Source: Naegleria gruberi
Taxonomy: Eukaryota
DNA length: 64,000 bases
Strand: one strand, 5' to 3'
Assembly (NCBI GenBank): GCA_000004985.1
Contig: GG738900.1
Shown one piece after another: positions 2,339-37,651 of the stretch (positions are counted from its first letter, which is position 1; the number at the start of each line of letters is the position of its first letter). The notes under the pieces were generated by a model. The model was given only the letters and a program-made list of their open reading frames with translations, was not told the origin of the DNA and made no database searches. A program made the translations under genes and the position numbers.

Positions 2339-3911
2339 ATGTTAACAAATCATCAGGCAAAAAGTTAGTTTTCTTCAATGTTGCGAATTTTTATAAGAAT
2401 AATAATAATTGCTTGTTTATGATCATTACCATCATCATGATGAACGAATACTGATACTAATAATAATAATAATAATAATTTAATTTTTATATTACTGAAT
2501 TGATTGATGAACAATTGATGAATAATTAATTATAGGGAAGGGAGAAAATAATTCCTTGTGCAACCGATCAAGATCGGGTCGTGAATTTGAAGGTTGTACA
2601 GTGAATCGTATCTTTGCAAGCTTTTCTCATACATTTTCCAGTACAAATCCAAAGTTTCAAGACAATTATACTCCTCTCGATCATAGTAAATATGAATTAT
2701 ACGAGTGGAAAATGTCGACCAATCAGCCACAAATTGTCATTAAGGAAGTTAGTACTGGAAAGGACTATATGACATTATTAACCATGGATGGTCGATTGTT
2801 GTTTATGGGACAAAATACATTTGCATTGGGTTCTGTATTGAGTGGAGAAAAGCTTCCTGATTATGTAACATGTCTGGAGGAGGCTTGTGTAAAGGTAGTC
2901 AGTGGGAGAGGTGATAATGGTGTAGGAGAAACCTTTTTAGAATTGGGTAAGAAGGAGACGAGGAATTTTCTTCATGTTGGAAGTGGAATGTACTTTATGG
3001 TAGTTCTTACGTCAGATTATAGATTGATTTCTTCTGGATCTAATGAGTGTGGACAGACAGGTGTTGGTCAAAATGCTAGTAGCATGGGAGGTTTTTCTGA
3101 ATGTGTTTTCAATAAGGATTTACAAGATTCAAAGAATGAAATATTGAGAGGAATTGTTAAAATTGCATGTGGATACCAACATTGTATGATATTGACTAGA
3201 GATGGAACAATGATTGGAACTGGGTGTTCCTACCAACGTCAATTAGGTCCAATTGAAAATGATATATCCTATGAATTTACAAAATTAGTATCTCCTGAAA
3301 CGACTACTCCAATAGTAGATATTCAATGTGGATACTTTAGTAGTTCATGTATTGACGCTAATGGAATGGTATATGTAGTTGGACAAGAGAGTTACACTCG
3401 ACTCGTCGCTGCAGAGAAATGGACCAAATTACAAACTTTTATTTATGATCCAGTTCAATACATGACAATGAGTTGTTCCAATTCATTCTTTCGAACAACA
3501 AGTGGATTAGTCTATCACAATTGGGGAAGTAATGATGACAATGAAAACAAACCATTTGAGAATTTGCAAAAATTAAGTGAGATACCTAATGTGGAATATA
3601 TATTTGGAAAGGAAAATTTCTTAGCTGTAACGGAATCTAAGGATATCTATCTCTCCACAAACTCTTCTTGTTCTGGAATTATTAAACCACCAACATCTGA
3701 TACTCGTTGGTTTGAATACAATGGCCTCAAACAACACATTCCTAAAAATGGAAGATATCAACTATTCATCGCCGATGCATTCAGCTTTTACATGTACTTT
3801 ATTCTATCCTCCAATAAGGAAGGTCACTTGAAGGATAATCTGAAAATTACACTCCAAAAAGGACAAACAGATTTTGAAAAGAATTATTTCATGGACATTA
3901 TCATCAAGTAG
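2339..3911 (+). CDS. RCC1-like repeat (beta-propeller) protein, paralogue A. Structure is join(2339..2363,2536..3911).
   Basis: RCC1-type repeats (IACGYQHCMILTRDG, GTGCSYQRQLG, SSGSNECGQTGVGQ). ATG at 2339, then a 25-nt first exon (MLTNHQAK), GTTAGT donor, AG acceptor at 2535 and a phase-1 junction. About 35% identity with the gene at 36230-37651 over the full length. Confidence 0.7.
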
Positions 3912-4116
3912 TAATCATACGAATTATTATACTTGTAAATATTAAACTTGTTAAAGATCATCCTTCACCATATATGATTACTACTACTTCAAAACCAAGT
4001 ACAGACCTCATGACCATATACCATCACATTTACAAATAAATTCAGTGAAAATCCTGCAACTGTAACTCTTTAAAAAAAAACGGCGCACTATTTTTTGTGA
4101 ATATTTTAAAAAAAAA

Positions 4117-4722
4117 ATGAAAAATTCCTTTACTGCCTCCGTCGTGATGACCATTTTCATGGTTGTTGTGTTGATGAGTTTATTGGCGCTTGATGTTGTT
4201 GAAGGTATTATGGAATCTCGTGTTCGTTTAATTGACTCCAACTCACAATTAAATCGTTTCCTCTTCCGTGGTAATACTCCAATTGAACATGGAAATTTTG
4301 CGATTGGAAAGTTGAGAGATTTAGTCAGAGAGGTTGGAAAGAATAATAATGTTCAAGTGCCTGATGAATTCTATTTGATTGATGTATCATTCTTGAATAT
4401 GTTTGAAGAAGATTTGAAGGATGAAACAGAATATTTCAAAGCTAATCCACATATTGGTGAATTGGTTCATTGGACTATTATTGGTAATCCAATCAATGGT
4501 ACTGATTTACCTGAATGGTTGAGAAAGGATCTTGCTATTTATGAAAAGAAATGGGATAGAGAAGATAAATTGATCGATAGAGTCGATCAGCTCTATAACT
4601 GGATTCACACTCAAGATAGCATTCATAATTTGAATCAAGATGCTCAATCTGCCAAAGCTTTGGTTTTCTACATCCATTGTGAGGCTGGAATGGATAGGTA
4701 TGTAGAGTTTCATATTATTTAA
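4117..4722 (+). CDS. Secreted PTP-superfamily phosphatase with an HCxxGxxR P-loop; possibly the PTP-like phytase family. A 3' exon probably lies at about 4786-4942 and ends at the TGA at 4940.
   Basis: N-terminal signal peptide (MKNSFTASVVMTIFMVVVLMSLLA). CX5R catalytic motif IHCEAGMDR at the end of the ORF, followed by a GTATGT donor. The downstream frame WTYMQTLEYDYHVENRPIEF...SRNK* looks coding. The exact splice was not resolved. Confidence 0.55.
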   Translation: MKNSFTASVVMTIFMVVVLMSLLALDVVEGIMESRVRLIDSNSQLNRFLFRGNTPIEHGNFAIGKLRDLVREVGKNNNVQVPDEFYLIDVSFLNMFEEDLKDETEYFKANPHIGELVHWTIIGNPINGTDLPEWLRKDLAIYEKKWDREDKLIDRVDQLYNWIHTQDSIHNLNQDAQSAKALVFYIHCEAGMDRYVEFHII

Positions 4723-4985
4723 AGTTGTTAACAAGTGGAATAGAACTGGTGAAGTTTCAGGTTCATATTATTTAAAGTATAACAAGTGGACATATATGCA
4801 GACTTTGGAATATGATTATCATGTCGAAAATAGACCAATTGAGTTCATGTCACAAAATGCATTGAACTGGTTCTGTTGGCATCAATTTTACACTCTTGGT
4901 TATCCAACTGATTGTAACTTGTCACCAAGCAGAAACAAATGAATTTAATTTTTTGTGTCAATTTTGTTTATTAATATGAGGAGGA

Positions 4986-5606
4986 TTATTCAAGACTTTG
5001 AATCAGATCATAATGTTGTTTCTTTTCATCGTAGGATAACCAAACTTCCTTATTCACATTTTTCACATGTTCTGGATTGACTTCAATCACTTCAGATTGA
5101 ATAATCTTCCCAGAGACAATCAAAATTCTAAAGGCAACATTCGGATACACTCTACTAGCTGCCACAACACTTGTAAAATCACCAAAAGTTCCACTCTTAC
5201 TCAAACTATTCAAATATTCATCAAAACTTTGTCCTTCCTCAACAAATAGAGCATGTTTCAACTCTAATCCATCAATTTTAGTTTCCAAATTATTTCGCAT
5301 CCAACCAACAATTTCCTCTCTCAATTTTTGATGATTCTTTCCATTATTAATTCCTTTCGAAAGACTATCATAGAGACAATTGCCATCCGATACGGAGGGA
5401 ATAATTTTGAAATGATCAGTTAGTAATTTTCCTCGGAGTGATGATGATGATGAAATATTGTTATCAGCAAAAGAAAATCTTGATGCAGAGAAATTACGCA
5501 AATAATTAATTTTTCTATTATTACTTGAAAAATTGGTGAATTGTTTTCTGCTTATAGATTTAATCATTTTTTTTTGATTTTTAAAAATTGTAATGGAATT
5601 GAGCAT
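4986..5606 (-). CDS. OTU-domain cysteine protease (deubiquitinase-like).
   Basis: True ATG at 5604-5606 (minus strand). OTU catalytic motif SDGNCLYDSL and a C-terminal His region (KKQHYDLI). N-terminus is Asn/Ser-rich. Confidence 0.75.
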   Translation of the reverse strand: MLNSITIFKNQKKMIKSISRKQFTNFSSNNRKINYLRNFSASRFSFADNNISSSSSLRGKLLTDHFKIIPSVSDGNCLYDSLSKGINNGKNHQKLREEIVGWMRNNLETKIDGLELKHALFVEEGQSFDEYLNSLSKSGTFGDFTSVVAASRVYPNVAFRILIVSGKIIQSEVIEVNPEHVKNVNKEVWLSYDEKKQHYDLIQSLE

Positions 5607-5646
5607 ATTTGGTAATTGTTAATAAATTGTTAATAATAAATTCATT

Positions 5647-7209
5647 TTACTGTATTCCAGCAAGTTGTTTCAATGTAGCATCATTGATTCCCTCCTTTCG
5701 AATATCTTCTCTGCATTTCATATCGGTGGCTGATAAGTTCCATAAGGATTTGGCTGCGAATGAGCTCACTTGCTTATCCTTTCCATTGGCAAATCGAATT
5801 AGTTGTGGAACAATTGCATGAGAGAGGAGAATCTTTTGATTTTCTGCATTCTTGGTCATGTTAAATAAGGCAGCATTATACGATTCCAAATTTGGTTGTG
5901 GAATTGGACATGGAGATTTGGAAAACCATTCAGCAATGAGTTTTACAAAACCACTCTCTCTAAATGCCTCAATATTTTCTCTCATATTGGTCAATTTGAC
6001 CAACAAACTTGTGGCCATATTGAAACAAGATGGTTTTTGAGAGGCAATGCTAATTTCATCTCTCAAAAAATTGGTCAAAATAATTAAACCTCCCTTAGAT
6101 TGTGAAAATTCGAGGCACATTTCTGGACTAGCATAGCATAGGGAAACTACTGAGGAGAGGACATGTTCGAGAGCTGTCTTGTTTTTTGAAGAGAACTTTT
6201 TGAAGGCCGACACCAAATTGGACATGATGAATGTGTGTTCGTGGAGTTGAGCGGAAATTTCTGGATTTTGGACAATGTTTCCAACTGCTCCTGCAGCACT
6301 TTGAGCAATTGAATCAACTGCATGAGTGAGGAAATTGCTTACCACTTTCAATGCCCTAACAAGTTGAATTTCAGAACATTGTCCCTTCTTTTCACATACA
6401 AATGAGAGTGACATTAGACAGTTAGCAAGTCATTCATTATTTTCACTGTTTGGATTCTCTAAAACGGAAACCATCTTTTCCACAAATCCTTCCTTTACCA
6501 ATAATTTCTGAATGGAACCACTCTCATCATCACTGACAATTAAATTGTAAACACAAAAGACAGTTTTCGATCTGATTTGTTCCAATTGTGTTAAATCTAT
6601 TTGTTTCACTAAAATCCTGAGAAGTGATTGATCATTGGCTGAGTTTTGTAATTTCTGAGCCATGTATTTTCCAGTGGTTGCACTTGTAGAGCTAGTTGTG
6701 GTGGAATTTGAACTTGCTTTTACAATTTTTGTAATAAATGTTGGTTCCAAACTCAGGAATGAAATCAGTGATAACACATTTCGTTTCATTTCTTCTGTAA
6801 ATTTGGCATCTTTCAATATTTCTGAAAAAACTTTGATTGAATTTTCCTGATTGACCATTTCTTTTCGTATTGAGGCATCATTATCCTCACATAAATTAAC
6901 CAATGCACCAATTCCATACTCTATAATCGCCAACTCACTTGAATGATTCTCCAAAACCTTGAAAATCATTGAAATTCCACTCTTAATTTCATTTCTACAT
7001 TTATCCAACGTTGCCAAATTCAGTAAAATTCCCAAAACATTCTTTACAATTCTCTTATCATTCTGTTGATCATTTAATAATGAAATTATTATCGGAATCC
7101 CTCCCAATCTATGAATTTCAAACAAATTGGCATCTTCACTTGTCATGTTAAAAACATCTCCAATGGCGGACAATTTAACTAACGAATTTCCTGTTTTGAT
7201 CTTGTTCAA
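5647..7209 (-). CDS. Armadillo (ARM)-repeat protein. The two ORFs 6430..7209 and 5647..6414 are in the same frame and are separated only by an in-frame TGA at 6430-6432. A probable 5' micro-exon (MSNMSR) lies at about 7290-7307.
   Basis: ARM/HEAT-like repeats on both sides (GGIPIIISLLND..., LVNLCEDNDASIRKEMV, QLIRFANGKDKQVSSFAAKSLWNLS). No canonical intron removes the TGA. Confidence 0.6.
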
Positions 7210-11007: not shown

Positions 11008-11019
11008 ATCATCATTTTC

Positions 11020-14054: not shown

Positions 14055-14116
14055 ACATTATTTTCATTTATTTAGAATAAGAATGAAATACAAGGGTGTA
14101 CCCCAATGGTAGAGTA

Positions 14117-15313
14117 TTAGAATAAGAATGAAATTAAAACAAGCAAGCAAACAATTAGGAAAGAAGCTTGCTTAATATTGGAGGAACCACTTGTTTTAAC
14201 AGCTCTTCCACTGCATTGAGTTGCTTTTTGATTGACAACAGTCAATTCATTTCCATTTCTTGTCAAGATGAAAGGATTGTTAAAGATTATTGCACTCAAA
14301 GTGGTGTCAGAATTAATGTTTGAAACTTGAGCAGACATGCTTGTTGAAGAGCCACATTGACCATTCACTGGACCAGTCAAAAAGACAGTATTAGTGTTGG
14401 ACTTGGTGACAGAAACACTTCCTGTCAAACAACAACATGAATTGACATCGCATGTGTCTTGAACTTTCCATGTGCCAACCCAAGCAGATGTATAATCCAC
14501 TGGGTTAGATCCAGTTTGAACATCAACACCACGACTTTGTGAATAGGTATTTCCACCAGTAGTGTAGGTTGCTTTCAATTTAGCTGAAACTGAGGATGAA
14601 ACTGTGATAGAATTTGAGAATGTAGCAACACCATTAGAAGTTGTTGCAGTTGTTGAACCTCCCAGTGTACCACTTCCTTCCCAACTCAAAGAAATACTTT
14701 CTCCAGAAGTAGAAACTGTGTTTCCACTGGTGTCAAGTAATCTGACTGTTGTGGTGAAGGTTTGACCGCTGTTAACAGTTGTTGGAGCAGAAAGATCCAA
14801 ACCAACAACAGTACCTGTAGGAGTAGTACAACCATAAGAAACACTATACTTCAATGGACAACTCATGATTGCGTTGGTGCACTCAACAAAAAATTTGGCA
14901 TTTTGTTGATCTAATCTGTATGTACCAGCATAAACGCAAGTAACAGAGCTTGCTGAAGAAGGACCATTGTAGTAACTGAAAGGAAGACCTTGTTTATATT
15001 TTTCAAAATCAGCTTCAGAAACAGTGTAGTATTTGAAGGAGCTTCCATCAGTTGACTGAACATTAACGCTATAGGAAGATACAACTTGGCCGGTAGGACA
15101 GGTTAGAGAGAAACTAGTATAGGCATGGGCAGCAACACTTTGAGGACAAGTGCCACCCCCACATGTACATGCAATACATGAGCAGCTTTGTCTTGGGCTT
15201 CTGAACAAGTTTTGTTCCACAGCCTTGAGAGAAAGTTGAGAAGAAACTTGTTGAGCACAAGCCATTAATACAAAAAGCATAATAGCAGCTAGAATAGATT
15301 TGGTGTGAAACAT
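14117..15313 (-). CDS. Secreted, predicted GPI-anchored Ser/Thr/Gly-rich surface protein, paralogue A.
   Basis: Signal peptide MFHTKSILAAIMLFVLMACAQQ. Hydrophobic C-terminal tail ASFLIVCLLVLISFLF. Cys-rich C-terminal domain DYTSAWVGTWKVQDTCDVNSCCCLTGS... that is nearly identical to gene B. Repeats of TSG/GGS type. Confidence 0.7.
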   Translation of the reverse strand: MFHTKSILAAIMLFVLMACAQQVSSQLSLKAVEQNLFRSPRQSCSCIACTCGGGTCPQSVAAHAYTSFSLTCPTGQVVSSYSVNVQSTDGSSFKYYTVSEADFEKYKQGLPFSYYNGPSSASSVTCVYAGTYRLDQQNAKFFVECTNAIMSCPLKYSVSYGCTTPTGTVVGLDLSAPTTVNSGQTFTTTVRLLDTSGNTVSTSGESISLSWEGSGTLGGSTTATTSNGVATFSNSITVSSSVSAKLKATYTTGGNTYSQSRGVDVQTGSNPVDYTSAWVGTWKVQDTCDVNSCCCLTGSVSVTKSNTNTVFLTGPVNGQCGSSTSMSAQVSNINSDTTLSAIIFNNPFILTRNGNELTVVNQKATQCSGRAVKTSGSSNIKQASFLIVCLLVLISFLF

Positions 15314-15382
15314 TTTTTTGTCAATGAGAGTCACTGTTCAGTTTTACTAGCTGTCACTTAATACCTTTTGGGAATTCATAAC

Positions 15383-15616: not shown

Positions 15617-16387
15617 TTAAACGAAGAGGAGAGAAATCACAACAAGCAAACAAATCAAGAAGGAAGACTTTGTGGTGAGAGAAGTATCACTTGTTTTAAC
15701 AGCTCTTCCACTGCATTGAGTTGCTCTTTGATTGACAACAGTCAATTCATTTCCATTTCTTGTCAAGACGAAAGGATTGTTAAAGATTATTGCACTCAAA
15801 GTAGTGTCAGAATTAATGTTTGAAACTTGAGCAGACATGCTTGTTGAAGAGCCGCATTGACCCTTCACTGGACCAGTCAAAAAGACAGCATTGGTATTTG
15901 ACTTGGTGACAGAAACACTTCCTGTCAAACAACAACATGAATTGACATCACATGTGTCTTGAACTTTCCATGTGCCAACCCAAGCAGATGTATAATCACC
16001 TGATGGATTATTAGAACCAATTTGGACATCAACACTGAGAGATTGTGAATAGGTTGATCCACCAGAAGTATAGGTTGCTTTCAACATGCCAGAAGTAGCA
16101 GCTGAAACTGTGATGGAAACTGAGAAGGCAGCAACACCATTAGAGAATGAAGCAACCGTTGAGCCACCCAAAGTACCACTTCCTTCCCAACTCAAAACAA
16201 CAGAACCAGAAGCTGCCATGGTGTTTCCACTAGAATCTAACATTTTGGCACTTGCAGAGAAAGTTTGGCCACTAGTAACAGTGTTTGGAACTGTCAAGCT
16301 CAAAAAAGCCAATGTGGCAGCTTGGCAGGTGCCAACAAAAGCGAGCAATGCGAGTATGACAACAAGGAATTGTTTAGTATTGAACAT
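15617..16387 (-). CDS. Secreted, predicted GPI-anchored Ser/Thr/Gly-rich surface protein, paralogue B (tandem duplicate of 14117-15313).
   Basis: Signal peptide MFNTKQFLVVILALLAFVGTCQA and hydrophobic C-terminus. The 3' ~330 nt are about 97% identical at DNA level to 14161-14470. Confidence 0.7.
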   Translation of the reverse strand: MFNTKQFLVVILALLAFVGTCQAATLAFLSLTVPNTVTSGQTFSASAKMLDSSGNTMAASGSVVLSWEGSGTLGGSTVASFSNGVAAFSVSITVSAATSGMLKATYTSGGSTYSQSLSVDVQIGSNNPSGDYTSAWVGTWKVQDTCDVNSCCCLTGSVSVTKSNTNAVFLTGPVKGQCGSSTSMSAQVSNINSDTTLSAIIFNNPFVLTRNGNELTVVNQRATQCSGRAVKTSDTSLTTKSSFLICLLVVISLLFV

Positions 16388-16456
16388 TTTTTTGAATGAT
16401 AATTAGAATTAGTTACATTCGTCAATGACGTTTCATACACGAAGGGAATTCAAAAG

Positions 16457-17386: not shown

Positions 17387-20300
17387 ATGACACAATCACC
17401 TTCATCAAATCAGGGTGGTAATGACAAGAGCAAAAACTTTCCCAGCCGTATCAAAAGCTTTTTCATCAAGTCATCTTCTCCAACTAGTCCCAACAATTCC
17501 TTACAACCGAGAATTTCATCACCCAACTCTCCAAATCTTCCCAAAACTGCAAGTTCCAACACTCTTCCTATTCATATTCATAATAATAACAATAATATCG
17601 AGAACTCTCCATCATTCACCAGAAAGAGTAGTGCTAGCAATGAAATATCATCAGTATTATCTTCCTCTCCACTTGTTAATTCCCCATCATTAAATTCATC
17701 GTCGAATATCAATAATATTCGGCATAGTAACAATCAATTTTTGATGGTTTCTCCATCATTGAATAATAATAATAATATTTCTCCACCTAATAATAATAAT
17801 AATTCTAATAATTATTATTCAACAACAACGGGAACAACAACTTCAAACACTACATCATCTAACGAGGCAATTTCCCCAAATACCAATAATGGTGGTAGTG
17901 CTGCTGCTACTAGTGGAGGAGGACAACAACAAAACGACAACAACAACAACAATATTCAGCAGCATCAACTCGAGCCAATTGTTTTTGATTCGCCAAACTC
18001 ACCTCCAAATCACAGTAAAAACAACGGGTCGTTTTTGGCGGGAGAATTTGATAAGAAAAAAAATCATCATGAGCCTACAGTTTCATCCTCATCCAATTAT
18101 ACGACCACTTCGACATCAAATTCTATCGGAAGTGGTGGAGGTGGTAGTAGAAGAATGGATAGTACAGTATCGGATATTGTTGTTGGAGGACATATTTTGT
18201 CAAGTTCAGTGATGAATAGTGATTTGATGCAATATGATTTGAATTTTAATGAGGGAGGATCAAGAAAAACATTTGATTTTCATAACATGACAGCAAATTC
18301 GACACTGGGTAGCCTTCCTCCTGGAGGATTTTTACATGGTGCTTCGAATAGTCAAACTAATTTTGGAAGTGTAAGAGATTCTAATGCAATACTTTCGGAG
18401 AGTATGTTGGATAGACATCTATTGGATGTCCATCATCAAGATGGTATGTTCATCAATTATCTTACTTGATAATAATTGATTAACTCATTTATATTCTAAT
18501 AGATTCTATTTCTCAATCATCAATGGACTCAGCGAGGTCAACTCCTCATGTTAATATTGCCCGTTTGGGTCATCATCAAAAAGATACACATTCACAATTT
18601 AATGACATCACAGTTTCGGATGAAGGAACAACAGCTGAGGATACCTTGTCTGTTAATGGAGTTCCAATGAATGTAGATGAAATATTTCATGTTTATTCTG
18701 TAGAAAATAATCCAACCATATCCATGACAGGTTATGCTGACACTTACATGTCATCTTTTTCTAACATTAAAAATTCAACGAGTGAAGATAAGAATTTATT
18801 TGGATTACAATGTTTACCAAATATTTTCCAACCACTTTACTACAAAGATAATGATAATTCAGCCTATGGATTTTCAGAAATCAAGAAAGTTCCTCTATTG
18901 TCTCAACTGTCAGAACAGGAAGTTTCAGACTTGCCTGTACATGCACGCAAGACAATCAAAAACAAATATGAATCACCATTCCTTGTACTTTTATCAAATT
19001 CTAAGAAACAACATCATCTCTCTAGGAGCACTCTCAAAAAATTCTCTGTCAGTCAAACTAAAAAGCAATTAATTGAGGATACTAAATGGAGAATGTTTGA
19101 AGATGCCATGCTTTCAAAGGAAGTTAGATTTCACAATGATCCTAACACTTCATCCAGTAATCCAGTTTCGGATTACATTTTACCATCTGGAAAGAACGAC
19201 AAAACCAGAAACAGGTCAGACTCTGGAGGCTTACTGACATTGAAAACACTTTCGGATTTTGGTGGGAAACCTTCAACCAGTCCATCAACCAGTCCGACCG
19301 TTGGAAGTCCTCTAACACTCGAATCCATGTTTAAAAGAAAACAATCAGATTATGCAAGCTCACCAAATACTGATGATACATCTAGCCTTTCTTCAATGAA
19401 AGGGTACGATTCCAGTTCTGAGGAGGAAGAAAGCTTTCAAATTGCCAATTTTTCTCCTAGAATAATTCAAGAAATACCACATGGTTTCTTGGCTACTAGA
19501 TTGGACCTACTTAAAGATTATATGAAAGAATCATGTGAGGAAAACACTAATGTTTCACTGAAGAAGAATGTTGCTGAATACAAAGTTTGGAAGAAGGAAC
19601 ATTCTCTCCTCGAATTTTTATCTGACGATTTGATGAATACACACGAACTGAAAACAAAACTGTTTCCATTCATGTATGCACCAAACGAAAATCTGAAGGA
19701 TGGATCATCTGACATTTTACTTCAAAACTTTTATGTCAACAAGCAAGACGTTGATAATAGAGCCAAACTAATTATTGATATAGAAAAATTCAAGCTGGAT
19801 TTTGTTGAAGAGCACTTGAATGGAGTACCATTGGAGAATTTTTATGCCAGTTTAACCTTGTACTCTGTCAAGCTAACAGAATCTCAAAATCCATCCATCT
19901 CTGCAGTTAAAAGATATAGCGAAACATTTTCCTTCAATCTTTCGTCTTCATCCAATAATAGTAAGAGAGCTCTCTTCTACTTGTCAAGCCAAAATTTGCC
20001 TAACAGCACAGCACCAAACACTGAAAAGGTGTTTGTCTTGGTGAGAATATTTAGAAACTTTAAGGGAACTTATGCGGAACACTTTAACGAGCTCTATATC
20101 AAAGGAAAAAATACGCCAAAGAGTTCCTCTGATAAACCATTCAATGTCAATGACTCTAAAGATTACAAGGCAATCAAGGCTGTTAAACCAGCATTCTTTG
20201 AGTCTCTTAAGGATGTTTACTCTGCTTTTGCATGGTCTATTGTAGAACTCAATCCAATGCTCAACAGTCTTCCTGCTCTCCAATTCCCTAGTTTGTACAT

Positions 20301-23300
20301 GAATGGTGAAGGACTTTCAAACGATTTTTATGTGAAGAATATTTATTGTATACCAGACAAACTGGTTGGAAACGTTTCAGATGACAAGCTTTTCGAAGTT
20401 TATTTTGCCAATGGATTGAATCTCATCCCTAACGTTGCCGAAGTATCTGCAGGAGAAAGTGGAATTTCTGGAGGTCTTTCAACAAGCGAAAAAACCCTTG
20501 TTGTCAACAGTGGTAAGGATATCATCAAACAGCTGTCGAAGACAATGCTTAGAAGTATTCCTAGCAAGCTTACCTTCAAACTAATGCTGTTGCCTCCATC
20601 AAAATCTAATCAAACTCTTAGAGCTTCCCTATTTGAAAATGAAAAGCAATATCAATATGTACAGAGAAAATACTTACCGGAAAATAATATGTTAGTCATT
20701 CAAAAGGAATCTGTCACCGATCAAGTTGAAAAGAAAAAGAAGAATAGAGATGATAGCAAGGAGACCTTGCAGGCTGATTTACCTGTTACTGAAATGGAAC
20801 AGTTCTATTCTTCCAATACCATGCCAGAATCTACTACAAGACAAACAAATTTGAGAAATGAGCTTTACATTTATCCACAAAGTGCCAACTTTTCCAAATT
20901 TGCAGTCAAAAATAAGAATATTCAAATAACAGTGTCTTACAATGATACAGACCAAAACTTCTCACTCAATAATATGGAACAAAGAAACAAAGGACTTTTC
21001 TACAAACCTTTCACTAGTAATAATTCAAGTGACCGTATTAATGAGGGTGAATGTGTTAGTGTAGCTTTGAAGAACGAGAAACCAGAATTTAGTGATGAAA
21101 TCAAATGTATTATTCCGTGCCGTTATCCAACTGAGGATGAAGATTGTAGACAACACTTAGTTTTCAAGTTTTACAATGTTTCACACAAAGAGACAATTCA
21201 AAAGAAAGCTAGTGATGTAGAACTTTCTCAATCTAGAACTCTTATTGGTGTATCATTTTTGAAAGTATACAAGAAGGTAACAACAACAATTGATAAGAGA
21301 AAAATCATCCTCAAAGATCTAATTAATGGAGATTTTGAGTTGCCAGTTTATCCAGTTCTTAACATTCCAAACGCAAACTATTTGAGATTATGCGACCAAA
21401 TTATGGATCCTTCTCTAGTACATATCAAACCATCGGCTACTTTTAAAGTTAAAATTATTCCATATAGCTTTATTTTACCAAATATTGCTCTCACTTTCCC
21501 ATACTCAACCTCCAACATTATCAATTTGTTCCTTCTCAAGTTTTTCAGATTGGTTAACAATACAGTTTCTGTCACTCCAACATTTGAAGAAATTGCAGAT
21601 GTTTACAAGACTTTGATTCAAACTTACGAGTATGAAAAACAAGTTGTATCCAACACCATTTGGTTTGAAATGCATGCTTTATATTTACCAATGATATTGA
21701 ACACTTGTTTTGACTGGATTATTGACACCTTTGGTAAAGACAAGAATTACACAACAGAATTATGGAAAATTATCCTCTTCTTCATTGAAAAGTATAACCA
21801 ACATTCGGCATCTTCTTCAACTGTTCTCAAAATCTACCAAAAATATCATTTCAGATTCTCCAAGAGTGGGGATGATGTTATTTTCAAGTTGATCTCATCA
21901 TTTATTGACTCAATCAAAATTGAGAATTCCAAACTGAGTCCTAAAGGAAACGTATTTGAGGAACTCTTCTTGAGAAACAACCAAACAATATTTGGGTTAT
22001 TTTTGAAGAGTATTGTTTGTTCAATGAGTTATAATACTGTGGAACCATTCCAAGTCGATAATGAGTTTGATAATCTTCATATTATGACTAAGTCAAGTTT
22101 GAACGCCATAGAACAATTTACTGTAATGGTTTTGGAAATGGTGGAAAGAGTTTCATTCAAGAATGAAAAGCATACAATCCTCAAATCATTCTTGAAGAGT
22201 TTTGCTGCTTTTTATTCCCATCTAATTGCTATTTATTCGATAAAGGCAGAAAAGCGGTTTGAACTTGCAGGACTCATCTCCAAACAAGAAATTATCCAAT
22301 ACCTCCTTAAATTTATAGAGTCGATGGGTTATTTACCTTCTCTATACAAGTTGAAGAATAATGATAACGACTCTAAGAAATCCAAGGAAATCTCTACACT
22401 GGTATCAGAATCACAATTATTGATGATTAGTGAACTTTTACTTCATTTCCCTTCATTTGAACTTTCTCTACCTCCACCAATTTCTCTCCTTGATAGTATC
22501 ATTGCTCAAAGTCAAAATGCAGAAGCACCAATATCAAACTTTAGAGATATTCATCACTTTGTTTTCTCTTCATTTGCCGAATATTTCGTAAGAACAATTT
22601 ACTTGGCTGAAGAGAAAGAAGTTAGACTTAAGGCAATTTTACTATTCAAAGAATATGTAGAAAAGATCAGTAGAGAAAGTAGTACTGTTCAATTATCAGA
22701 AGAAAGTCAACCTGATGAACAAAAGGCCGAAGTTCGATCTAGAATATTCACTTCCCAATTACTTCTTGAATTCTTTGCCAAACATATGATTGAGATTTTC
22801 CCAGAGTGGAAGAGAAACGCAGAGTCTAATCAAAAGAAAATTACAACTGCTATTGAGGAGTTGAGAAGAAAAATATCACAAGTGGAAAGAGATATTCTTG
22901 CAGCCCAAGACAGTCTTAACCAGGCAAAGCAAAATAAGACAAAGAAGTCAACGGAACCAGAAAAGAAGTTGAACCACTTGGATGTTCAATTAACAACTTT
23001 GAAACAGTTATTGCTTACAAAAGAAAAGCAATTATTGGAGGAATTTGAAACAACCAAAACTGAAAAACGTATGCTTCTTTCTGTGTTTGTCCAAATAACA
23101 ACAAATTGTGATGAGAACTCGCTTAGATCTCTATGGAAGATTAAACCAGCTTCAGAAGATTCTAACATGTATCACGATGACGGTCTTCATTTCAGTTCTA
23201 AACTCTTGATGATATTCCAAATGTGTGTACAGAGTTTTGAGTATGGCGGCTATTCTCCTTTATATCACTACTTTGATAGACTCTACCAAAAGCTTCCACA

Positions 23301-26300
23301 GAATCAAACTGTGAAACACTCCACACCTCTCAATGAAAAATTCTCTCCAGCTAAATCAAACCCTTCAATTTCTAGGTCAGCAAGTGACAGGAAGAAAGGT
23401 GACGATAAACCACTCACCAAAATGAGTTTAGATGGACCTATGGATGTTGATTCTCCAGTGAGATCTTCTCCTAGCCAAGGAGCAAACAGTGGAATTTCTA
23501 AATCTGATTATATTGAGAAAAAGATAACCATTGAGAGATTGATTTCCAACGAGACAAGTTCAACCATTTTTCAACTCTTCTTAAAATTCATGGAAGACAA
23601 TGCCGAGTTTATTCAAAATATTGTTCGTCCAGGAGCATACATTGATCCAAAACATTTACCACCGATTTTGGAAAATATTGTCAGAACACTTTTGAATTTA
23701 TTGAGATCAAACCTAAGCGAATGCTTGACAATATCCGTATTGTTGTATTTGAGACATGTTTTATCTCAACATCCTTTCACTGCCATATTCTATAATCCAC
23801 AATCAGAATATGGTTTGCTATTCTCTGAAGAACTACTTCGTTTGAGTCACTCCAAGCTTGGTTCGATTAGAAAACACGCTGCTGCCTGTTTCTACTTGTG
23901 GATTCGTTTTTGCTTTGAAGAAAACAAAGGTATGACTGTTCCACAAATAATGGTAACTCTCTCCCTTTCAAGAAGATTGCAAAGTTATACCAAAATTACC
24001 CACAACTTTTTATCAGACAATACTATAGGTGATGAATCGTTTGATGATTCTGAAGGTATTAATGCTCTGGCTCACATTGAAGAATGTATTAAATTGTTGC
24101 CTTACTTTGCCATCAAGGATGAGGCAGCTCCAGGTTCAAAATTCTTCAAAATTAGAAACAAGTACGGAGCTCAAAAGGGTGATGTTACGGATAGAGAAGT
24201 CCAAGCCGAAGATAATAATGGAAAACAGAAAGGAGAAAGATTCCACACTGCTATGGTGTTCTTTAAAAAGATTGAAAACAAGGCAGATCAAAAGAAATTT
24301 GGACAGAAAGTTCTCGAAGTGTTAGACCAATTCCACGATTTATTGTCTGATCTTTCTAAAAAGTTACTCAGTCTTGTTCAAGATACCATGTCAATTAGGG
24401 CCACAATGATCAAGCGAAAGCAAAGTGAAACTAGCACTGTAACTTATGATCCATTCAAAACTGAAGAATTATTGTATAGAATATCTGACAATTATTCAAA
24501 ACTTCCTGAACTCAGACTTGCATGGCTGGAACAACTTGCCTCCTATCACAAAGGATTGGCCCAATATGAGGAGTCTGCACATTGCTATTTGAGAATTCTC
24601 TCTCTAGTATTCGATTATTTGGATCATCAAGCTACAAAGAAATTCACTCCCAACAGTATCAAAACGGAAACGTCTGTATTGGAAATTCTTCCACTCTCTC
24701 AATTCTACAGCATTTCTCCAATGTTGATAGAATTCAAGGTGAATCAAACAGGCATTCAAACTCAATCACTTTTAGGAGGAGGAAATTCCAAGTATGATTA
24801 CATGTCCGATCAGTCCATTGTGAATTACATACTCAAAACTATTGACTCTTTAGAGTTGGCTGAATGTTTCGAACACTGTATCATGTTATACAAGCTACTG
24901 ATTCCTATTTTCGAATCTAAATATGCTAACTTTACACAATTGCATATTATTTACGACAGATTGACACAACTCTATAAGAAATGCTCCTCCTTCCAATCAA
25001 CATCTAATAGCAAAGTTCCAACCTCTCCTAGTGATAATGAAACTACTAATGCCCTATCCCTCTCCAATATCTCTTCACTCTCAGCTTCAAAGACAACAGA
25101 AAACGAAACCGACAGTAGAGTATATAGCTTTTATTATCGTGTCAAATTTGTTGGAAGAGCATTTGGTGAATTGGATGGCAAAGTTTACATTTACAAAATG
25201 CCAAAACTATTCAAACTTTTTAAGATGAAGAACAAAATGTTGGAAATTTATGGAAAGGATGTAGAAGTTGTTTCTAAAGATGAAGCTGGAGTAGTTACCG
25301 CTGATGATGAGCTTTCAACTGGTTCTGAATCAAATAAGAAGGTCATTCAAATTAACCATGTCAAGCCATTCCTTCCAACTGTAGATCAAATGAAAATTTT
25401 AAGAAAGAAATTTGATGATCTCAATAGATTGAGTAATATTAGTACAAGTGTTAATAGTGCTCCTAGTACGAGAGGATCCGATAGAAATTACAAGACTATT
25501 CTCAAAAAGAGTCCAATGACCTCCAGTACTAGCAAATTACCAACAATGAGCAGTGATAGTCTCAGTCCTAGAAATCGTTCTAATTCAAACTCTCAACCTC
25601 CTCTTCCAACTCTCAGATCAAATATCAAATTCAAGAGTGACGAGAATTTGTCAGTTTACAATATGGAAGGAGTTGCTTCACCACTATCACCAAGAGATGG
25701 CATCCTATCGCCAAGTTCTCCTTCTAAAGTTTCCATTCCAAAACTTAATCTATCCAAGAATAAGAAGGAAAATTCAGGTAACCAAAGTGAATCCAACCAA
25801 AATGCCTTCCAAGATATGGAACGATTTTTATATGATAAGATTTTATCACTCAACTACTTTATTACCAGAGACTCTGAATTCCAAAGAAATATGAACCTCA
25901 ACCATTTCTTTTATGAATATTCTGTTGCTGCCAAAGGAGCAGACATTACTCAAACTTACAAGAAGAAGATTTTAATCACCACTGAAGAGTACTTCCCTAA
26001 TGTCATGACTCGTTTGGAAGTAGCTGAGGAAAAGGAATTTACACTCTCTCCAATTGAAAATTCAATTGAAATGATTGATACACAAGTTAAAAAATTAGAG
26101 ACTGCCATGAATTCAGTATTATCAACAGCTCTGGGTGACGTGGCGAATTATAGCGTTCTTGGAAATATGTTCAATCACTCTGTCCACACATCTAGTCACA
26201 GCAATAATACTGGAACACCTGGCTACAACAAACGTCACTCCATCAAAGGTGGTTCCAATTTGGTGATCAATTTGAACATGACCAATTCTCTAGGTACTGT

Positions 26301-27084
26301 TCCATACTTTAACGATCTGAACATTAATCCTCACACTGTCTCCACTCTACAAATGATCTTGCAAGGAAGCGTTCAAGCAAGGGTTGGTGAAGGACCTAAA
26401 AAAGTTGTGGAAATCTTTTTAAATAGAGAATTCAGAGAAAGATGGAAAGTTCAACAAGGAAACTCTGACCTTATCACCAAGCTTAATGAGAGATGTTTCA
26501 GATTTTTGTTATTGTGTGATAGAGGAGTCAAGTTGCATTCTCTCATAATCCACTCTCAAACACCAACAGCTACCAACAATAAGGATAGAATTTTACATGC
26601 AGAATTGGAGAAGGGTTTCCATGAAGTCAAGTCATTATTCGAAGCCTACCTAGAAATTCCAACTGTGAGAACCTTTGTACCAGTTGTTAATGGATCTATT
26701 GTACCAGAGAGAGTAACCAACATGAAGAAGGGACAAGAAACTGTAGAAACATTTATTACTGTCACTGTTCAAGATGTTTTGAATTATCCAGATTTATTCT
26801 ACAAGCACAATAATATTTCTTACAATACTCTGCAAAATCTTAAACTTGGCAAACAACAATTAACCGACCCATTCAAACAAATTTCAACACCATCAGAATC
26901 GCCAAGAAATGCAGACCTCCTCAATGCAATCAGAAACAACAATAGACTTTCAATTCCATCAACTAAAATGAAGGAATATTTGGAACAATTAAGTATTCCC
27001 TCAGGAAGATCTCTCAACTTGGATTCTGATAACCATCTAGTTCACGACTTACTCCTTCGTCAGTCCTCAGCTGATCTTCAATAA
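17387..27084 (+). CDS. DOCK-family (dedicator of cytokinesis) Rac/Cdc42 GEF of about 3200 aa. Structure is join(17387..18443,18503..27084).
   Basis: Exon 1 is a low-complexity Asn/Ser-rich N-terminus. GTATGT donor at 18444, TAATAG acceptor at 18502, phase 1. DHR-2 signature SKLPELRLAWLEQLASYHKGLAQYEESAHCYLRILSLVFDYL at about nt 24470-24620. Size and architecture match DOCK/Zizimin proteins. Confidence 0.8.
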
Positions 27085-32915: not shown

Positions 32916-32978
32916 TCCGAAACTAATGGATTTTCTTCATCTTCTCTGGAAACTGTTTTACTCTCATCATCATGCTAC

Positions 32979-34233: not shown

Positions 34234-34308
34234 ATTAACTTGTATAAATTAATATTTAATTGTAATATTCGTTTGACTCATATATATATGTACAAAATTT
34301 CATATCCA

Positions 34309-34647
34309 CTAAGCTAAATAACTTGCTTCTGCTTCGTTTTCACACGGAGTACTTTCATTTGCAGATTCTTTACAGTCACAAGCAACTTGACAACCATTTT
34401 CATCTACCTTGTATCCGTGTGGACATGCTACAAGACAATTGTATACTCTACATGGTGCTGGATTGCAATCACAAGCTATTTGGCAACCGAATCGATCAAC
34501 CTTGTATCCATATCTACAAGGAATGAGGCAGTAAATATTTCTACACGAGCTTGTTCTATGATTTGGTGGTTTGATTGGAAAGGCAGATATCTGATGAAAC
34601 CAAACAGAAAGAATGCACAGTATGAGGAGGGTTTGAAAGATTTTCAT
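34309..34647 (-). CDS. Small secreted Cys-rich protein (112 aa) with two antistasin-like domains; a putative protease inhibitor.
   Basis: Signal peptide MKIFQTLLILCILSVWFHQISA. Two repeats of C-x3-C-x2-GYKVD-x2-GCQ[IV]ACDC, which matches the antistasin/hirustasin cysteine pattern. ATG at 34645-34647. Confidence 0.55.
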   Translation of the reverse strand: MKIFQTLLILCILSVWFHQISAFPIKPPNHRTSSCRNIYCLIPCRYGYKVDRFGCQIACDCNPAPCRVYNCLVACPHGYKVDENGCQVACDCKESANESTPCENEAEASYLA

Positions 34648-34760
34648 TTTGTTTAGTGCTGTGGAGAAACAGTTGAGTATTATTTGTTACAACAAGTGTA
34701 TTTCCTAGTTTGGTGCCTTTCTTGGAGTGTCAACAGTACATATTTAGAAATGGGATAGAA

Positions 34761-35735
34761 TTAGTGTTGGGGAGAAGAAATAACGTCAGAAAATCCTCGT
34801 TGTTCCTTCATTTGCCTCATATGTTTAAAGAATTTGAGATTAGATTTCTTCATTATTATACATCTTTCCAAATCAAAGTTCTTAATCATTTGGTGCAGGT
34901 TGGTGAACTGCAATCTTTCAGCTGCCTGTTCAGAATTCAACATAATTCTCTGTCTGACAATTCCACTATATTCTGAAACCATTATTACATCATCACTGAA
35001 TAGACAATCAATCTTTTTACAAGCTCCACATTCCAATAGAATCCTTGCAATTTGACATTTTCCTTTCAAACAAGCAATGAATAATGGTGTTCGATTCTGT
35101 TAGAATTCAAGAGTTAAAAAGAATTAATAATATGAATGACAACTTACTCCTGGTGAACCAAATCCATCAACATTGCATCTCAATCTATACAATAACCAAT
35201 AAACTAAATCAACTTGTCCCTTTGCAACAGCAACATGTAAAGCAGAAACATTTCCATTTGGTGTATTCGTATTGATAAACTCTTTAATCTTGAGTGTCAT
35301 CCAATCTCTCATTGTCTGATAACAACTATTACTCTGAACTTCTAGCAAACATTTGTAATTATTGACAAGTAAATGTGGAAGTGGATGAAAATCACCATAC
35401 TGATTCTCTATCATGGTTTGTAAATGCTCTTGAATCCATTTAGAAACAGTCTGATAAGAAGCACATTGATCATTCTTTGGAAATTCAATCCAGTACAATC
35501 TATTGAGGTATTGCTCCAATAATTGAGTTAAACTTTTGAAAAGATTTGAATCGAATCTAATCATGGAAACTTCATCCATTGAATGTTGTTGTTGTTCTGC
35601 TTGCTGTTCCTTACTCTCAATTGCTTCTTCTTCCTCTTTCAAATCTTGAATAATGGAAATGAAATGTTTGTTGTATTCCCTCAGCAAACTTGATCGAGTT
35701 GTGATGGTATTTGGATGAATGAGTTGTAGGGCCAT
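34761..35735 (-). CDS. Ankyrin-repeat protein. Structure is join(34761..35096,35148..35735).
   Basis: ANK repeats GNVSALHVAVAKGQVDLVYWLL and NRTPLFIACLKGKCQIARILLECGA are joined by a 51-nt GTAAGT..AACAG intron (phase 0). ATG at 35733-35735. Confidence 0.65.
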
Positions 35736-36229
35736 TTCGTGTATTTGTTCTTCTTTTTCTTTTTTGAAAATTTATGTAACATCATCTTCCAATGAGAGAT
35801 TTTAAATTCAACCACCGAATATTCGTGATGATTTGTAATTAAATTAGAAAAAAAGGAAATTGGATATTGGAGAGTTATCTATTGAACATGTTTGCGTAGA
35901 GTGATTGATGATGGAGATTGGTTGTGTACGTATTAATTGTTGTTCTTTTGATGCTCGTGTGGTTTTTTCGCATTCCTTGGCTTTGGTTCATCCGAAGGAA
36001 ATGATGAAGGAATTTGCTTCCATTTTGTTGTTGTTTTATTTTTTTTTATGGTTGAAGTTAAATTGTTTAACGGTTTGTGGTGGCGGGAAAATTTTTGATG
36101 TTGCTTGATGTAGATTCGAACAATATTTCCAATAGGACACAAAAAGCAACCTTAGTGTTTCCTTTCCTAGACTTTCTAGATTGAATGTCGAATCACAAAG
36201 AAAAGTTAAACAGCAAGTAAATCAAAAAA

Positions 36230-37651
36230 ATGGGCCAAAGTGGATCAAGAAAAGGTTTGTGTTTATTATTAGAAACTAAACTGATCATTCAATCGAAAAA
36301 CAGCAACAAAATCAACCAACTCCGGTTATAGACCATCACGTTCTGCTCCTTCACTTCTAGGAAGACAAGAAGTACTTTTAACTTTTGATACAGAATTTCA
36401 TTCCTTCTCTCAAGATAGTTTAGAACAAGTTTCTCAACTTGATCCGAAAGATGCTGCCACTCGAATTTTTAGATTTAAACATTTAACAGACAAAATGACG
36501 ATAAAATCAGTGAGTTCCGGAAAGAGCTTTGCTGCTCTCCTTGCAAATGATGGAAGGTAAGTGACAAATTTACAAAAAACTTTGAATTTTCGAATAACAA
36601 AAGATTATTTGTTTGTGGAAAGTGTCCATTCCCAACCACTGGACCAGAAACAACCTCCATAACCGATACAACCGATGAAAACCTTACACGTATTTCAATT
36701 GAACTTTCTAATAAGCAAGTTGTGGATAAATTTTCGAATATTGCTTGTGGAATGTATTTCATGATGGCTATGAGTGATGATCGTTCAAATATCTTCTCTG
36801 CAGGGCAGAATGAATGTGGTCAGAGAGCAATTGGTCGAGGAGGTTCTCTCAATTTTAAAGAATGTATTTTTGAGACCACTGAAATCAAAACCAAATTACT
36901 GAGTGGATTGGAAAAGATTTCATGTGGATATCAACATGCTATTGCCTATTCGAAAGATGGAAATCTGTATGGAACTGGATGTTCCTTTCAAAATCAATTG
37001 GGAACAATAGATAGTGGAATTTGTTACGAGTTTAGGAAAATATCGAGACCAAAAACTGATAATCAAATAATTGATGTACAAGCTGGATTTTTCTTTAGTG
37101 TTTGTTTGGATTCTGAAGGAATGGTCTATGTGACAGGAATAAGAGCTCACTCAAATATGATTGATGCTCAAGAATGGACGAAAATGAATACCTTCATCAA
37201 TCATCCAGTTTCTTCCATGTGGATTTCATGTTCCAACGCTTTCTTCCTAACTCAAGATGGACAAGTCTATCACAATTTGAATCTAACCTCAGAGATGGCC
37301 AATGATGAAAATCTCATTACTCTTCCAATACCTTCAGTCAAATCTATTTATGGTAAAGAATCTTACATGGCAGTCGATCAGTGGAATACAATCCATGTGT
37401 CAGCTTCGAATGGTTCTCAAGGAGTTTCAAACACATCGAAAAATTGGTTTGAACACGAAGGTATGCGAAGACTCATCGGAAGCAAGGATGAATTGCAAAT
37501 TCTTGATGCCTTTACTTTTTGTATTTTCATCAAATCATCCAATGAGGGAGTATTGAAGAATAACTTGTGTACTATTCTCAAAAAACAATTCAATAGTGAT
37601 TTGCATGAAAAGTCGTACTTGTATGATATCCGATTTACATCCATGCATTAA
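36230..37651 (+). CDS. RCC1-like repeat protein, paralogue B, with a predicted N-myristoylation start. Structure is join(36230..36254,36304..36556,36604..37651).
   Basis: The 25-nt first exon MGQSGSRK has Gly2 and Ser6, the N-myristoylation consensus. The phase-1 intron is at the same position as in paralogue A. A second GTAAGT intron lies at 36557-36603. RCC1 motifs ISCGYQHAIAYSKDG and GTGCSFQNQLG. Confidence 0.7.

What the first reader, a model, noticed from the sequence alone, without database searches (positions are those of the whole stretch)
2339..37651. RCC1-like paralogue pair with a conserved 25-nt first exon; only one copy has an N-myristoylation start
Genes at 2339-3911 and 36230-37651 encode collinear RCC1-like proteins. 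Both begin with an exactly 25-nt first exon followed by a phase-1 intron at the identical position. Paralogue B starts MGQSGSRK (Gly2, Ser6, the N-myristoylation consensus) whereas paralogue A starts MLTNHQAK. Paralogue B also has an extra intron (36557-36603) that A lacks. This suggests an ancient duplication followed by divergence in membrane targeting. Paralogue B sits directly next to the transposon insertion.
Basis: partly seen in the sequence, partly recalled or inferred. Interest (0 to 1): 0.5.

Follow-up and report, generated by a model that had tools for sequence, protein, structure and literature searches.

The report
Naegleria RCC1-like paralogue pair
Two related, uncharacterised RCC1-like propeller genes of the amoeboflagellate Naegleria gruberi both appear to start with a tiny 25-base first exon, and only one carries a lipid-anchor (myristoylation) start; this is a real but ordinary case of gene duplication, and one of the two gene models is already in the reference annotation.

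Summary
The observation largely holds. The window is Naegleria gruberi, which is a heterolobosean and not an amoebozoan. The two genes encode collinear RCC1-like proteins (37% identity, E=5e-84). They pass the Pfam RCC1_2 cut-off, and the model of A's core has a seven-bladed RCC1/UVR8/RPGR-type fold.

Its N. fowleri orthologue also starts MGQ (Gly2, Ser6). It also has a micro first exon (28 nt) followed by a phase-1 intron, the only intron the two orthologues share.

For A, the reference model (XP_002672108.1, 399 aa) starts at Met68. Three lines support it:
- the frame is open for 62 codons upstream of Met68;
- codon usage there looks coding;
- only two ATGs can be spliced in frame.
It remains unproven without transcripts.

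The duplication predates the N. gruberi/N. fowleri split (86% bootstrap). Myristoylation of B is a motif-level prediction only. The neighbouring transposon is real: it has TTAA duplications and 11-nt inverted repeats, and another strain has the empty site. Overall this is a routine paralogue pair of low interest.

The parts
2339..2363 (+). Paralogue A, proposed exon 1 (25 nt, MLTNHQAK + 1 nt). Not in the reference annotation.
   Evidence: This is the first ATG after the serpin stop codon at 2273. The context is CAAAAAAATG, as in B, and the donor is GTTAGT. Only two ATGs (2339 and 2378) can be spliced in frame to exon 2.
2364..2535 (+). Paralogue A, proposed intron 1 (172 nt, GTTAGT...TTATAG, phase 1).
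   Evidence: Codon-usage log-odds are strongly negative in all three frames (-1.1 to -1.7). An in-frame stop lies at 2523-2525, just upstream of the acceptor.
2536..3911 (+). Paralogue A, exon 2. It holds a 58-codon unannotated extension (2538-2711) and the annotated CDS from Met68 (2712) to the stop codon TAG at 3909-3911 (NAEGRDRAFT_52488).
   Evidence: The sequence is 100% identical to P0003 / XP_002672108.1 from Met68 onward. The extension is open and scores 0.175 per codon in frame. That lies above the 99th percentile of out-of-frame pieces (0.085) and inside the coding range (5th percentile 0.10). Pfam RCC1_2 matches. The model has a propeller fold.
36230..36254 (+). Paralogue B, exon 1 (25 nt, MGQSGSRK + 1 nt), carrying the N-myristoylation consensus.
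   Evidence: The spliced product equals XP_002672116.1 exactly. MGQ and Ser6 are conserved in the N. fowleri orthologue. In the second strain, indels occur only upstream of this ATG.
36255..36303 (+). Paralogue B, intron 1 (49 nt, GTTTGT...AAACAG, phase 1).
   Evidence: The donor reads GTTAGT in strain contig L002. The N. fowleri orthologue has a phase-1 intron after 28 nt.
36304..36556 (+). Paralogue B, exon 2 (Ser-rich basic linker and start of the propeller).
   Evidence: There is no ATG in frame before codon 73. Differences from the second strain in this exon are two synonymous changes and one Ser-to-Thr change. Codon log-odds are 0.256.
36557..36603 (+). Paralogue B, intron 2 (47 nt, GTAAGT...AAAAG, phase 2). 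It is absent from A and from the N. fowleri orthologue.
   Evidence: TAA lies in frame at the donor. Removing the intron restores DGRLFVCGK, which aligns with A and P0002.
36604..37651 (+). Paralogue B, exon 3 (RCC1-like propeller and C-terminal tail; stop codon TAA at 37649-37651).
   Evidence: Over the whole B CDS, 7 of 10 differences from the second strain are synonymous third-position changes, and 5 of the 7 differences in this exon are.
37712..40353 (.). Neighbouring DNA transposon: TTAA | GGGGTACCTCT ... AGAGGTACCCC | TTAA, with a 610-aa ORF on the minus strand (37858-39690).
   Evidence: A perfect 15-nt inverted repeat including TTAA occurs only at these two sites (0.01 expected). Strain contig L002 has the uninterrupted site with a single TTAA.

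Best explanation
A and B are two old, dispersed paralogues of a small RCC1-like family. They lie 32 kb apart on one N. gruberi scaffold, and no neighbouring genes were duplicated with them. The family was detected only in vahlkampfiid heteroloboseans (Naegleria and Willaertia).

Each protein has three parts: an N-terminal extension of about 70 residues that is basic and Ser-rich, a seven-bladed RCC1-type beta-propeller, and a short conserved C-terminal tail.

Shown: the paralogy, the RCC1-like identity, B's gene model and the conservation of its N-terminus.

Inferred:
1. The 5'-most intron (phase 1, one base after a Lys codon, 25-28 nt from the ATG) arose before the A/B duplication. It is the one intron kept in all three Naegleria genes, while downstream introns were gained or lost independently.
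2. After removal of Met1, B is N-myristoylated on Gly2 during translation. Together with Arg7, Lys8 and Lys11 this would form a myristate-plus-basic membrane anchor. That anchor would hold the propeller, a protein-interaction or GTPase-regulating platform, at a membrane.
3. A keeps the basic linker but has Leu2, so it cannot be lipidated in this way and would be soluble or targeted elsewhere.
4. The reference model of A is truncated at its 5' end.
For: - Paralogy: E=5e-84.
- RCC1_2 repeats score above the Pfam cut-off.
- The AlphaFold model of A's core (pTM 0.69) matches UVR8, the RPGR RCC1-like domain, RCC2, RCC1 and HERC RCC1-like domains with Foldseek E-values of 1e-17 to 1e-14.
- B's model is identical to XP_002672116.1.
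- N. fowleri P0002 starts MGQRLSSS, with a 28-nt exon 1 and a phase-1 GTAGGT..ATAG intron. Its other two introns are not shared with N. gruberi B.
- Strain comparison: 7 of 10 CDS substitutions are synonymous, there are no indels in the CDS, and two indels lie just upstream of the ATG.
- A's extension: the frame is open for 62 codons before Met68 (p about 0.03 from base composition). Codon usage is coding-like, with a sharp switch from the intron-like sequence upstream. Only two spliceable ATGs exist. All homologues carry an N-terminal extension of at least 65 aa before blade 1.
- The split {NgB, NfB} has 86% bootstrap support.
- In the exhaustive profile search, the only full-length single-stretch hits were A, the B cluster, one metagenomic B-like fragment and Willaertia.
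- The motif G-{EDRKHPFYW}-x2-[STAGCN]-{P} can be read directly in both B-lineage sequences.
- Retention of 5' introns in intron-poor genomes is established (PMC3488318).
Against: - No transcript evidence was reachable for either micro-exon.
- A's exon 1 is absent from the JGI/RefSeq model.
- Only 65 nt separate the serpin stop codon from A's proposed ATG.
- The donors GTTAGT and GTTTGT have T at position +3, whereas the donors enriched in this window are GTAAGT and GTATGT.
- The N-terminal peptides of A and B do not align significantly, so homology of the intron position rests on phase and distance from the ATG.
- The Willaertia homologue has neither the intron nor Gly2.
- Myristoylation, the presence of the N-myristoyltransferase (NMT) gene in Naegleria, and localisation were not tested. 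No paper in the library mentions these genes.
- No A orthologue was seen in N. fowleri, but the word-based searches were demonstrably lossy, so its absence is uncertain.
Confidence: 0.7

Rival explanations
1. A really starts at Met68, as in the reference model. The open frame upstream is 5'-UTR or a decayed remnant of a former N-terminal extension. The match of '25 nt' between A and B would then come from the reader picking the only convenient ATG and GT.
For: RefSeq XP_002672108.1 begins at Met68. A start at Met68 does not truncate the propeller, because the first strand begins about 9 residues later. The N-terminal similarity to B is not significant. The open frame has a chance probability of only about 0.03. 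The intergenic distance to the serpin gene would be a comfortable 438 nt instead of 65 nt.
Against: Codon usage of 2538-2711 lies in the coding range and above the 99th percentile of out-of-frame sequence. It switches abruptly at the proposed acceptor. B, the N. fowleri orthologue and the Willaertia homologue all have an N-terminal extension of at least 65 aa. The BLASTP alignment between A and B already starts 28 residues upstream of Met68.
Confidence: 0.2
2. A has a spliced 5' exon, but a different one: ATG 2378 with a 37-nt exon (MLRIFIRIIIIA..., donor GTTTAT) joined to the same acceptor. This would give a hydrophobic N-terminus rather than MLTNHQAK.
For: It is the only other ATG/GT combination that joins the exon-2 frame without a stop codon.
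Against: The donor GTTTAT lacks G at position +5. The 37 nt lie in sequence with intron-like composition. The Ile-rich peptide is what AT-rich non-coding DNA translates to. ATG 2339 comes first and shares the CAAAAAAATG context and the Lys-codon + 1 nt | GTT junction with B.
Confidence: 0.05
3. The short first exons of A and B arose independently. Introns in intron-poor protists cluster at the extreme 5' end, so the match in length and phase is coincidence, not inheritance from the pre-duplication gene.
For: The 5' bias of retained introns is general (PMC3488318). The Willaertia homologue is intronless. Downstream introns clearly turn over quickly in this family. The N-terminal alignment is insignificant.
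Against: The phase is the same, and in A, B and N. fowleri B the junction falls one base after a Lys codon. Both N. gruberi copies share an unusual GTT donor (GTTAGT in A and in the second strain's B). One origin is more parsimonious than two or three.
Confidence: 0.15

Closest known systems
RCC1-like domain proteins (RCC1, RCC2, RPGR RCC1-like domain, HERC1/2 RCC1-like domains, UVR8, WBSCR16)
   Same: RCC1_2 repeats score above the Pfam cut-off. The predicted fold is a seven-bladed propeller. The best structural matches are 8GQE/4D9S (UVR8), 4JHN (RPGR), 5GWN (RCC2), 1A12 (RCC1) and 4L1M (HERC2).
   Different: Identity to every solved RCC1-like domain is only 14-20%. The whole-domain Pfam model WD40_RLD scores 102-110 bits, below its cut-off of 150. 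The proteins have a family-specific C-terminal tail (..DAFTF..EGxLKxNL..NYFxDI) and a Ser-rich basic N-terminal extension. No partner GTPase or ligand is known. Full-length relatives were found only in Naegleria and Willaertia.
Myristate-plus-basic N-terminal membrane anchors (Src, MARCKS type) of NMT substrates
   Same: B and its N. fowleri orthologue have Met-Gly2, an uncharged residue at position 3, Ser6 and nearby Arg/Lys residues (read directly from the sequences).
   Different: This is a motif-level prediction only. Lipidation was not tested and the NMT gene was not looked for in Naegleria.
Evolutionary changes of membrane-attachment mode, as described for the Rheb GTPase (PMC5869587)
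   Same: Homologous proteins differ in whether and how a terminal lipid-anchor motif is present.
   Different: That work concerns a GTPase, with C-terminal prenylation versus other modes across eukaryotes. Here the difference lies between two paralogues of an RCC1-like protein within one genus, and it is unproven.
TTAA-specific DNA transposons such as piggyBac (for the neighbouring element only)
   Same: It has a TTAA target-site duplication, short perfect terminal inverted repeats, a single large ORF and a polymorphic insertion with a clean empty site.
   Different: No Pfam transposase domain was detected, including the piggyBac DDE domain. The termini are 5'-GGGG rather than 5'-CCC. The ORF carries a CXC/LIN54-like Cys cluster.

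Membership tests
RCC1-like domain (RCC1 superfamily) | RCC1 repeats detected above the curated threshold | tested here: met
   RCC1_2 (PF13540) scores 60.3 bits for A and 81.8 bits for B against a cut-off of 22. RCC1 (PF00415) scores 25.9 bits for B against a cut-off of 21.7.
RCC1-like domain (RCC1 superfamily) | Whole-domain model WD40_RLD (PF25390) above its gathering score | tested here: not met
   The scores are 109.8 and 101.7 bits against a cut-off of 150. The E-values are 2e-31 and 7e-29, so the relationship is clear but the domain is divergent.
RCC1-like domain (RCC1 superfamily) | Seven-bladed beta-propeller fold | tested here: met
   The AlphaFold2 model of A's core has pTM 0.69 and mean pLDDT 62, with blades 3-6 scoring above 80. 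Foldseek hits to UVR8, RPGR, RCC2 and RCC1 have probability 1.00 and TM-scores of 0.5-0.65. The alignment behind the model is shallow (4 sequences), so blade 1 and the tail are poorly modelled.
RCC1-like domain (RCC1 superfamily) | Guanine-nucleotide exchange or a defined ligand-binding activity | not testable with these tools
   No biochemical data are available, and no paper mentions these loci.
Co-translational N-myristoylation substrates (NMT) | Gly at position 2 after the initiator Met | tested here: met
   B starts MGQSGSRK and N. fowleri P0002 starts MGQRLSSS. A (MLTNHQAK) and Willaertia (MHFDLY) do not meet this feature.
Co-translational N-myristoylation substrates (NMT) | Consensus G-{EDRKHPFYW}-x(2)-[STAGCN]-{P}, with Ser/Thr preferred at position 6 | tested here: met
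   Read directly: GQSGSR (B) and GQRLSS (N. fowleri) both fit, with Ser at position 6. The pattern is recalled from PROSITE PS00008. No dedicated predictor was available.
Co-translational N-myristoylation substrates (NMT) | The start codon used in vivo is the one that precedes Gly | tested here: inconclusive
   The model equals the RefSeq model, the start is conserved in N. fowleri, and indels in the second strain stop just upstream of the ATG. No transcript or peptide evidence was available.
Co-translational N-myristoylation substrates (NMT) | NMT present in the organism and the protein actually acylated | not tested
   NMT is near-universal in eukaryotes (general knowledge). The one literature hit did not concern a Naegleria NMT.
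Shared ancestral intron (A, B and N. fowleri B) | Same phase and homologous position in the protein alignment | tested here: inconclusive
   All three are in phase 1, and the junction falls one base after a Lys codon. The position is 25, 25 and 28 nt from the ATG. The surrounding peptide alignment is not significant.
piggyBac superfamily (neighbouring element) | TTAA duplication plus terminal inverted repeats plus a piggyBac DDE transposase | tested here: not met
   The TTAA duplication and the inverted repeats are present. No DDE_Tnp_1_7 domain or any other Pfam domain was detected at E<=0.1.

The most novel reading that the evidence does not exclude
The 25-28-nt first exon may be a conserved 'lipidation cassette' of a heterolobosean-specific family of RCC1-like proteins. 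The B lineage would be a membrane-tethered propeller anchored by myristate plus a basic patch, possibly switchable by phosphorylation of the Ser-rich linker. A would be its soluble counterpart, created by duplication and loss of Gly2. That would be subfunctionalisation by localisation, which could be tested in a genetically tractable amoeboflagellate.
Probability: 0.3. Interest if true: 0.3.

Novelty: new member of a known kind. Interest (0 to 1): 0.15.

Why it matters
The practical value is in annotation. The reference model of NAEGRDRAFT_52488 (A) is probably missing 67 N-terminal residues and a micro-exon. The B lineage can be flagged as a predicted N-myristoylated RCC1-like protein that is conserved between N. 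gruberi and the pathogen N. fowleri.

The case also illustrates intron turnover in an intron-poor protist. Only the 5'-most intron survives between the orthologues, while the internal ones differ.

None of this touches a long-standing open question. RCC1-like paralogues, micro first exons and gain or loss of lipid-anchor motifs are all familiar.

Tried and rejected
P0003 had no contig on record. No transcript-derived contigs could therefore be reached.
- Two metagenome scans for further family loci found nothing. One used the A/B/N. fowleri alignment and the other used the B-like fragment P0152.
- The third word-based homology search, run with a 5-sequence profile, returned only P0024 and P0003. 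It did not return its own member P0002. Absence of an N. fowleri A orthologue therefore cannot be concluded from these searches.
- Smith-Waterman alignment of the N-terminal extensions against shuffles gave p=0.48. I rejected the idea that homology of the intron position can be proven from the peptide alignment.
- No synteny was found. Apart from the gene itself, no ORF of the 64-kb window matches the +/-10 kb around the N. fowleri or Willaertia genes. No neighbours of A are paralogous to neighbours of B. I rejected a segmental duplication.
- I considered that the conserved C-terminal '..NYFxDI' might be the start of a BTB domain continued in a further exon, as in RCBTB-type proteins. I rejected this because A, B and N. 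fowleri all stop at the same place and Pfam shows no BTB domain.
- The de novo survey of donor sites in the window was noisy. It showed only that GTAAGT and GTATGT are enriched.
- Literature searches for the locus tags and accessions, for Naegleria NMT, and for myristoylated RCC1-like proteins gave nothing specific.

Full report
**What is there**

The window has 30.5% G+C and comes from Naegleria gruberi. Protein A is 100% identical over 399 aa to XP_002672108.1 / EFC39364.1 (NAEGRDRAFT_52488). The spliced protein B is letter-for-letter XP_002672116.1 / EFC39372.1 (NAEGRDRAFT_81331), on the same 312-kb scaffold.

**Checking the observation**

B is 36230-36254 + 36304-36556 + 36604-37651 (441 aa).
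- The two proteins align collinearly at 37% identity over 428 columns, E=5e-84.
- Both pass the Pfam RCC1_2 cut-off, at 60 and 82 bits against 22. They hit the whole-domain RCC1-like model at E about 1e-30 but score below its curated cut-off.
- An AlphaFold2 model of A's core (pTM 0.69) is a beta-propeller. Its best solved matches are UVR8, the RPGR RCC1-like domain, RCC2, RCC1 and the HERC RCC1-like domains, at only 14-20% identity.
- 'RCC1-like paralogue pair' is therefore confirmed.

**Gene model of B**

The 25-nt exon 1 and both introns are exactly those of the reference annotation.

The N. fowleri orthologue gives independent support. P0002 is 516 aa and 53% identical over 363 ungapped columns. 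It starts MGQRLSSSK. Its first exon is 28 nt, followed by a phase-1 GTAGGT...ATAG intron (L001 10029-10153).

A second N. gruberi-like strain also supports the model. Contig L002 is 98.6% identical over 4.2 kb.
- It differs from B's CDS by 10 substitutions, of which 7 are synonymous third-position changes. There are no indels in the CDS.
- An 11-nt and a 1-nt indel lie just upstream of the ATG.

Intron 2 (36557-36603) is obligatory, because TAA lies in frame at the donor. Removing it restores DGR|LFVCGK, which matches A and N. fowleri. Neither A nor the N. fowleri gene has this intron. The N. fowleri gene instead has two other internal introns. The 5'-most intron is therefore the only one conserved between the orthologues. 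This fits the known retention of 5' introns in intron-poor genomes (PMC3488318).

**Gene model of A**

Evidence for it:
- The exon-2 frame is open from 2526, 62 codons upstream of the first in-frame ATG. The chance probability from base composition is about 0.03.
- Codon-usage log-odds of 2538-2711 are 0.175 per codon in frame. Coding pieces have a mean of 0.33 and a 5th percentile of 0.10. Out-of-frame pieces have a 99th percentile of 0.085. The proposed intron scores -1.1 to -1.7 in all frames.
- Every homologue has an N-terminal extension of at least 65 aa before the first blade.
- Only two ATGs can be spliced in frame. ATG 2339 has the better donor (GTTAGT). This is the same hexamer that B's intron 1 has in the second strain. 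ATG 2339 also shares the CAAAAAAATG context with B.

Evidence against it:
- No transcript evidence could be reached.
- The serpin gene upstream ends only 65 nt before this ATG.
- Donors with T at position +3 are not the type enriched in this window, which is GTAAGT/GTATGT.
- The N-terminal peptides of A and B do not align significantly.

I put the extension at about 0.8. Given the extension, I put the exact 25-nt exon at about 0.8, so about 0.65 overall.

**'Identical position'**

In all three Naegleria genes the intron is in phase 1 and sits one base after a Lys codon. It lies 25 nt (A), 25 nt (B) and 28 nt (N. fowleri B) from the ATG. A single origin before the duplication is the parsimonious reading. 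It cannot be proven from the alignment. The Willaertia magna homologue (KAL9643543.1, 492 aa) is intronless and starts MHFDLY.

**Age of the duplication**

A neighbour-joining tree on 363 ungapped columns gives the split {N. gruberi B, N. fowleri} against {A, Willaertia} with 86% bootstrap. The identities are 53% against 41% and 33%. The duplication therefore predates the N. gruberi/N. fowleri split.

Whether it predates the split from Willaertia is open. It is also unclear whether N. fowleri keeps an A copy, because the word-based searches were lossy. Neither synteny nor duplication of neighbouring genes was seen.

The exhaustive profile search over 1.84 billion representatives found only four full-length-type clusters: A, the B cluster, a metagenomic B-like fragment and Willaertia. 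All other hits were generic multi-repeat RCC1 proteins.

**Mechanism**

Shown:
- B and its orthologue start Met-Gly-Gln with Ser6 and fit the classical NMT consensus.
- Arg and Lys residues follow (R7, K8 and K11 in B).
- A has Leu2.

Inferred:
- B is N-myristoylated and, with the basic patch, is tethered to a membrane. This would hold the propeller there as an interaction or GTPase-regulating platform.
- A, which keeps a basic Ser-rich linker but has no Gly2, is not tethered.

No lipidation, NMT or localisation data were available.

**Neighbouring transposon**

The element is confirmed. It reads TTAA|GGGGTACCTCT ... AGAGGTACCCC|TTAA at 37712-40353. Its left TTAA begins 60 nt after B's stop codon. 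The 15-nt inverted repeat occurs only at these two sites (0.01 expected). The second strain has the intact site with a single TTAA, so the insertion is polymorphic.

Its 610-aa ORF has no Pfam transposase hit. It has a weak CXC/LIN54-like match. Its superfamily is unresolved.

**Verdict**

One half of it (B) is already in RefSeq. The other half (A's micro-exon) is a plausible annotation correction. The targeting interpretation is a reasonable but untested motif-level inference. This is an ordinary paralogue pair in a lineage-restricted subfamily of RCC1-like proteins, and the interest is low.

Noticed in passing
window 37712-40353; L002 about 4195-4210: A polymorphic DNA transposon with a TTAA target-site duplication and 11-nt perfect inverted repeats (GGGGTACCTCT). 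Its 610-aa ORF on the minus strand (37858-39690) has a CXC/LIN54-like Cys cluster and no recognisable Pfam transposase domain. A second strain has the clean empty site. Short Cys-rich ORFs at 39788-40320 (minus strand) may be upstream exons.
   Followed up: partly
window 14120-15337 (-) and 15620-16402 (-): Tandem paralogous ORFs, 77% identical over 233 aa. Both begin with signal-peptide-like N-termini.
   Followed up: no
window 54106-57004, 58219-58268, 59704-63095: Runs of N (assembly gaps) occupy about 6.3 kb of the last 10 kb of the window.
   Followed up: no
window 978-2273 (+): A serpin gene (Pfam Serpin, E=8e-80) ends only 65 nt before A's proposed start codon. This implies a very short terminator and promoter interval, or overlapping UTRs.
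   Followed up: partly
window 36255-36260; L002 equivalent: The donor site of B's intron 1 is polymorphic between strains: GTTTGT in the window and GTTAGT in L002. The L002 form is identical to A's proposed donor.
   Followed up: yes
L001 845-3142 and 5903-7777: In N. fowleri, two further genes for proteins with RCC1-like domains lie within 10 kb upstream of the B orthologue. One is a TPR + RCC1-like protein of 741 aa and the other is 591 aa. They are not close relatives of A or B: tblastn gives E=1e-5 at best.
   Followed up: partly
window 18484-27081 (+): A very long uninterrupted ORF (2866 codons) lies between A and B. It was not characterised, and it does not match the MOR2-PAG1 gene that neighbours the Willaertia homologue.
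   Followed up: no
window 36185-36220: A short upstream ORF (MSNHKEKLNSK*) lies 45 nt before B's ATG. The second strain has a 1-nt deletion inside it, so it is probably not coding.
   Followed up: partly
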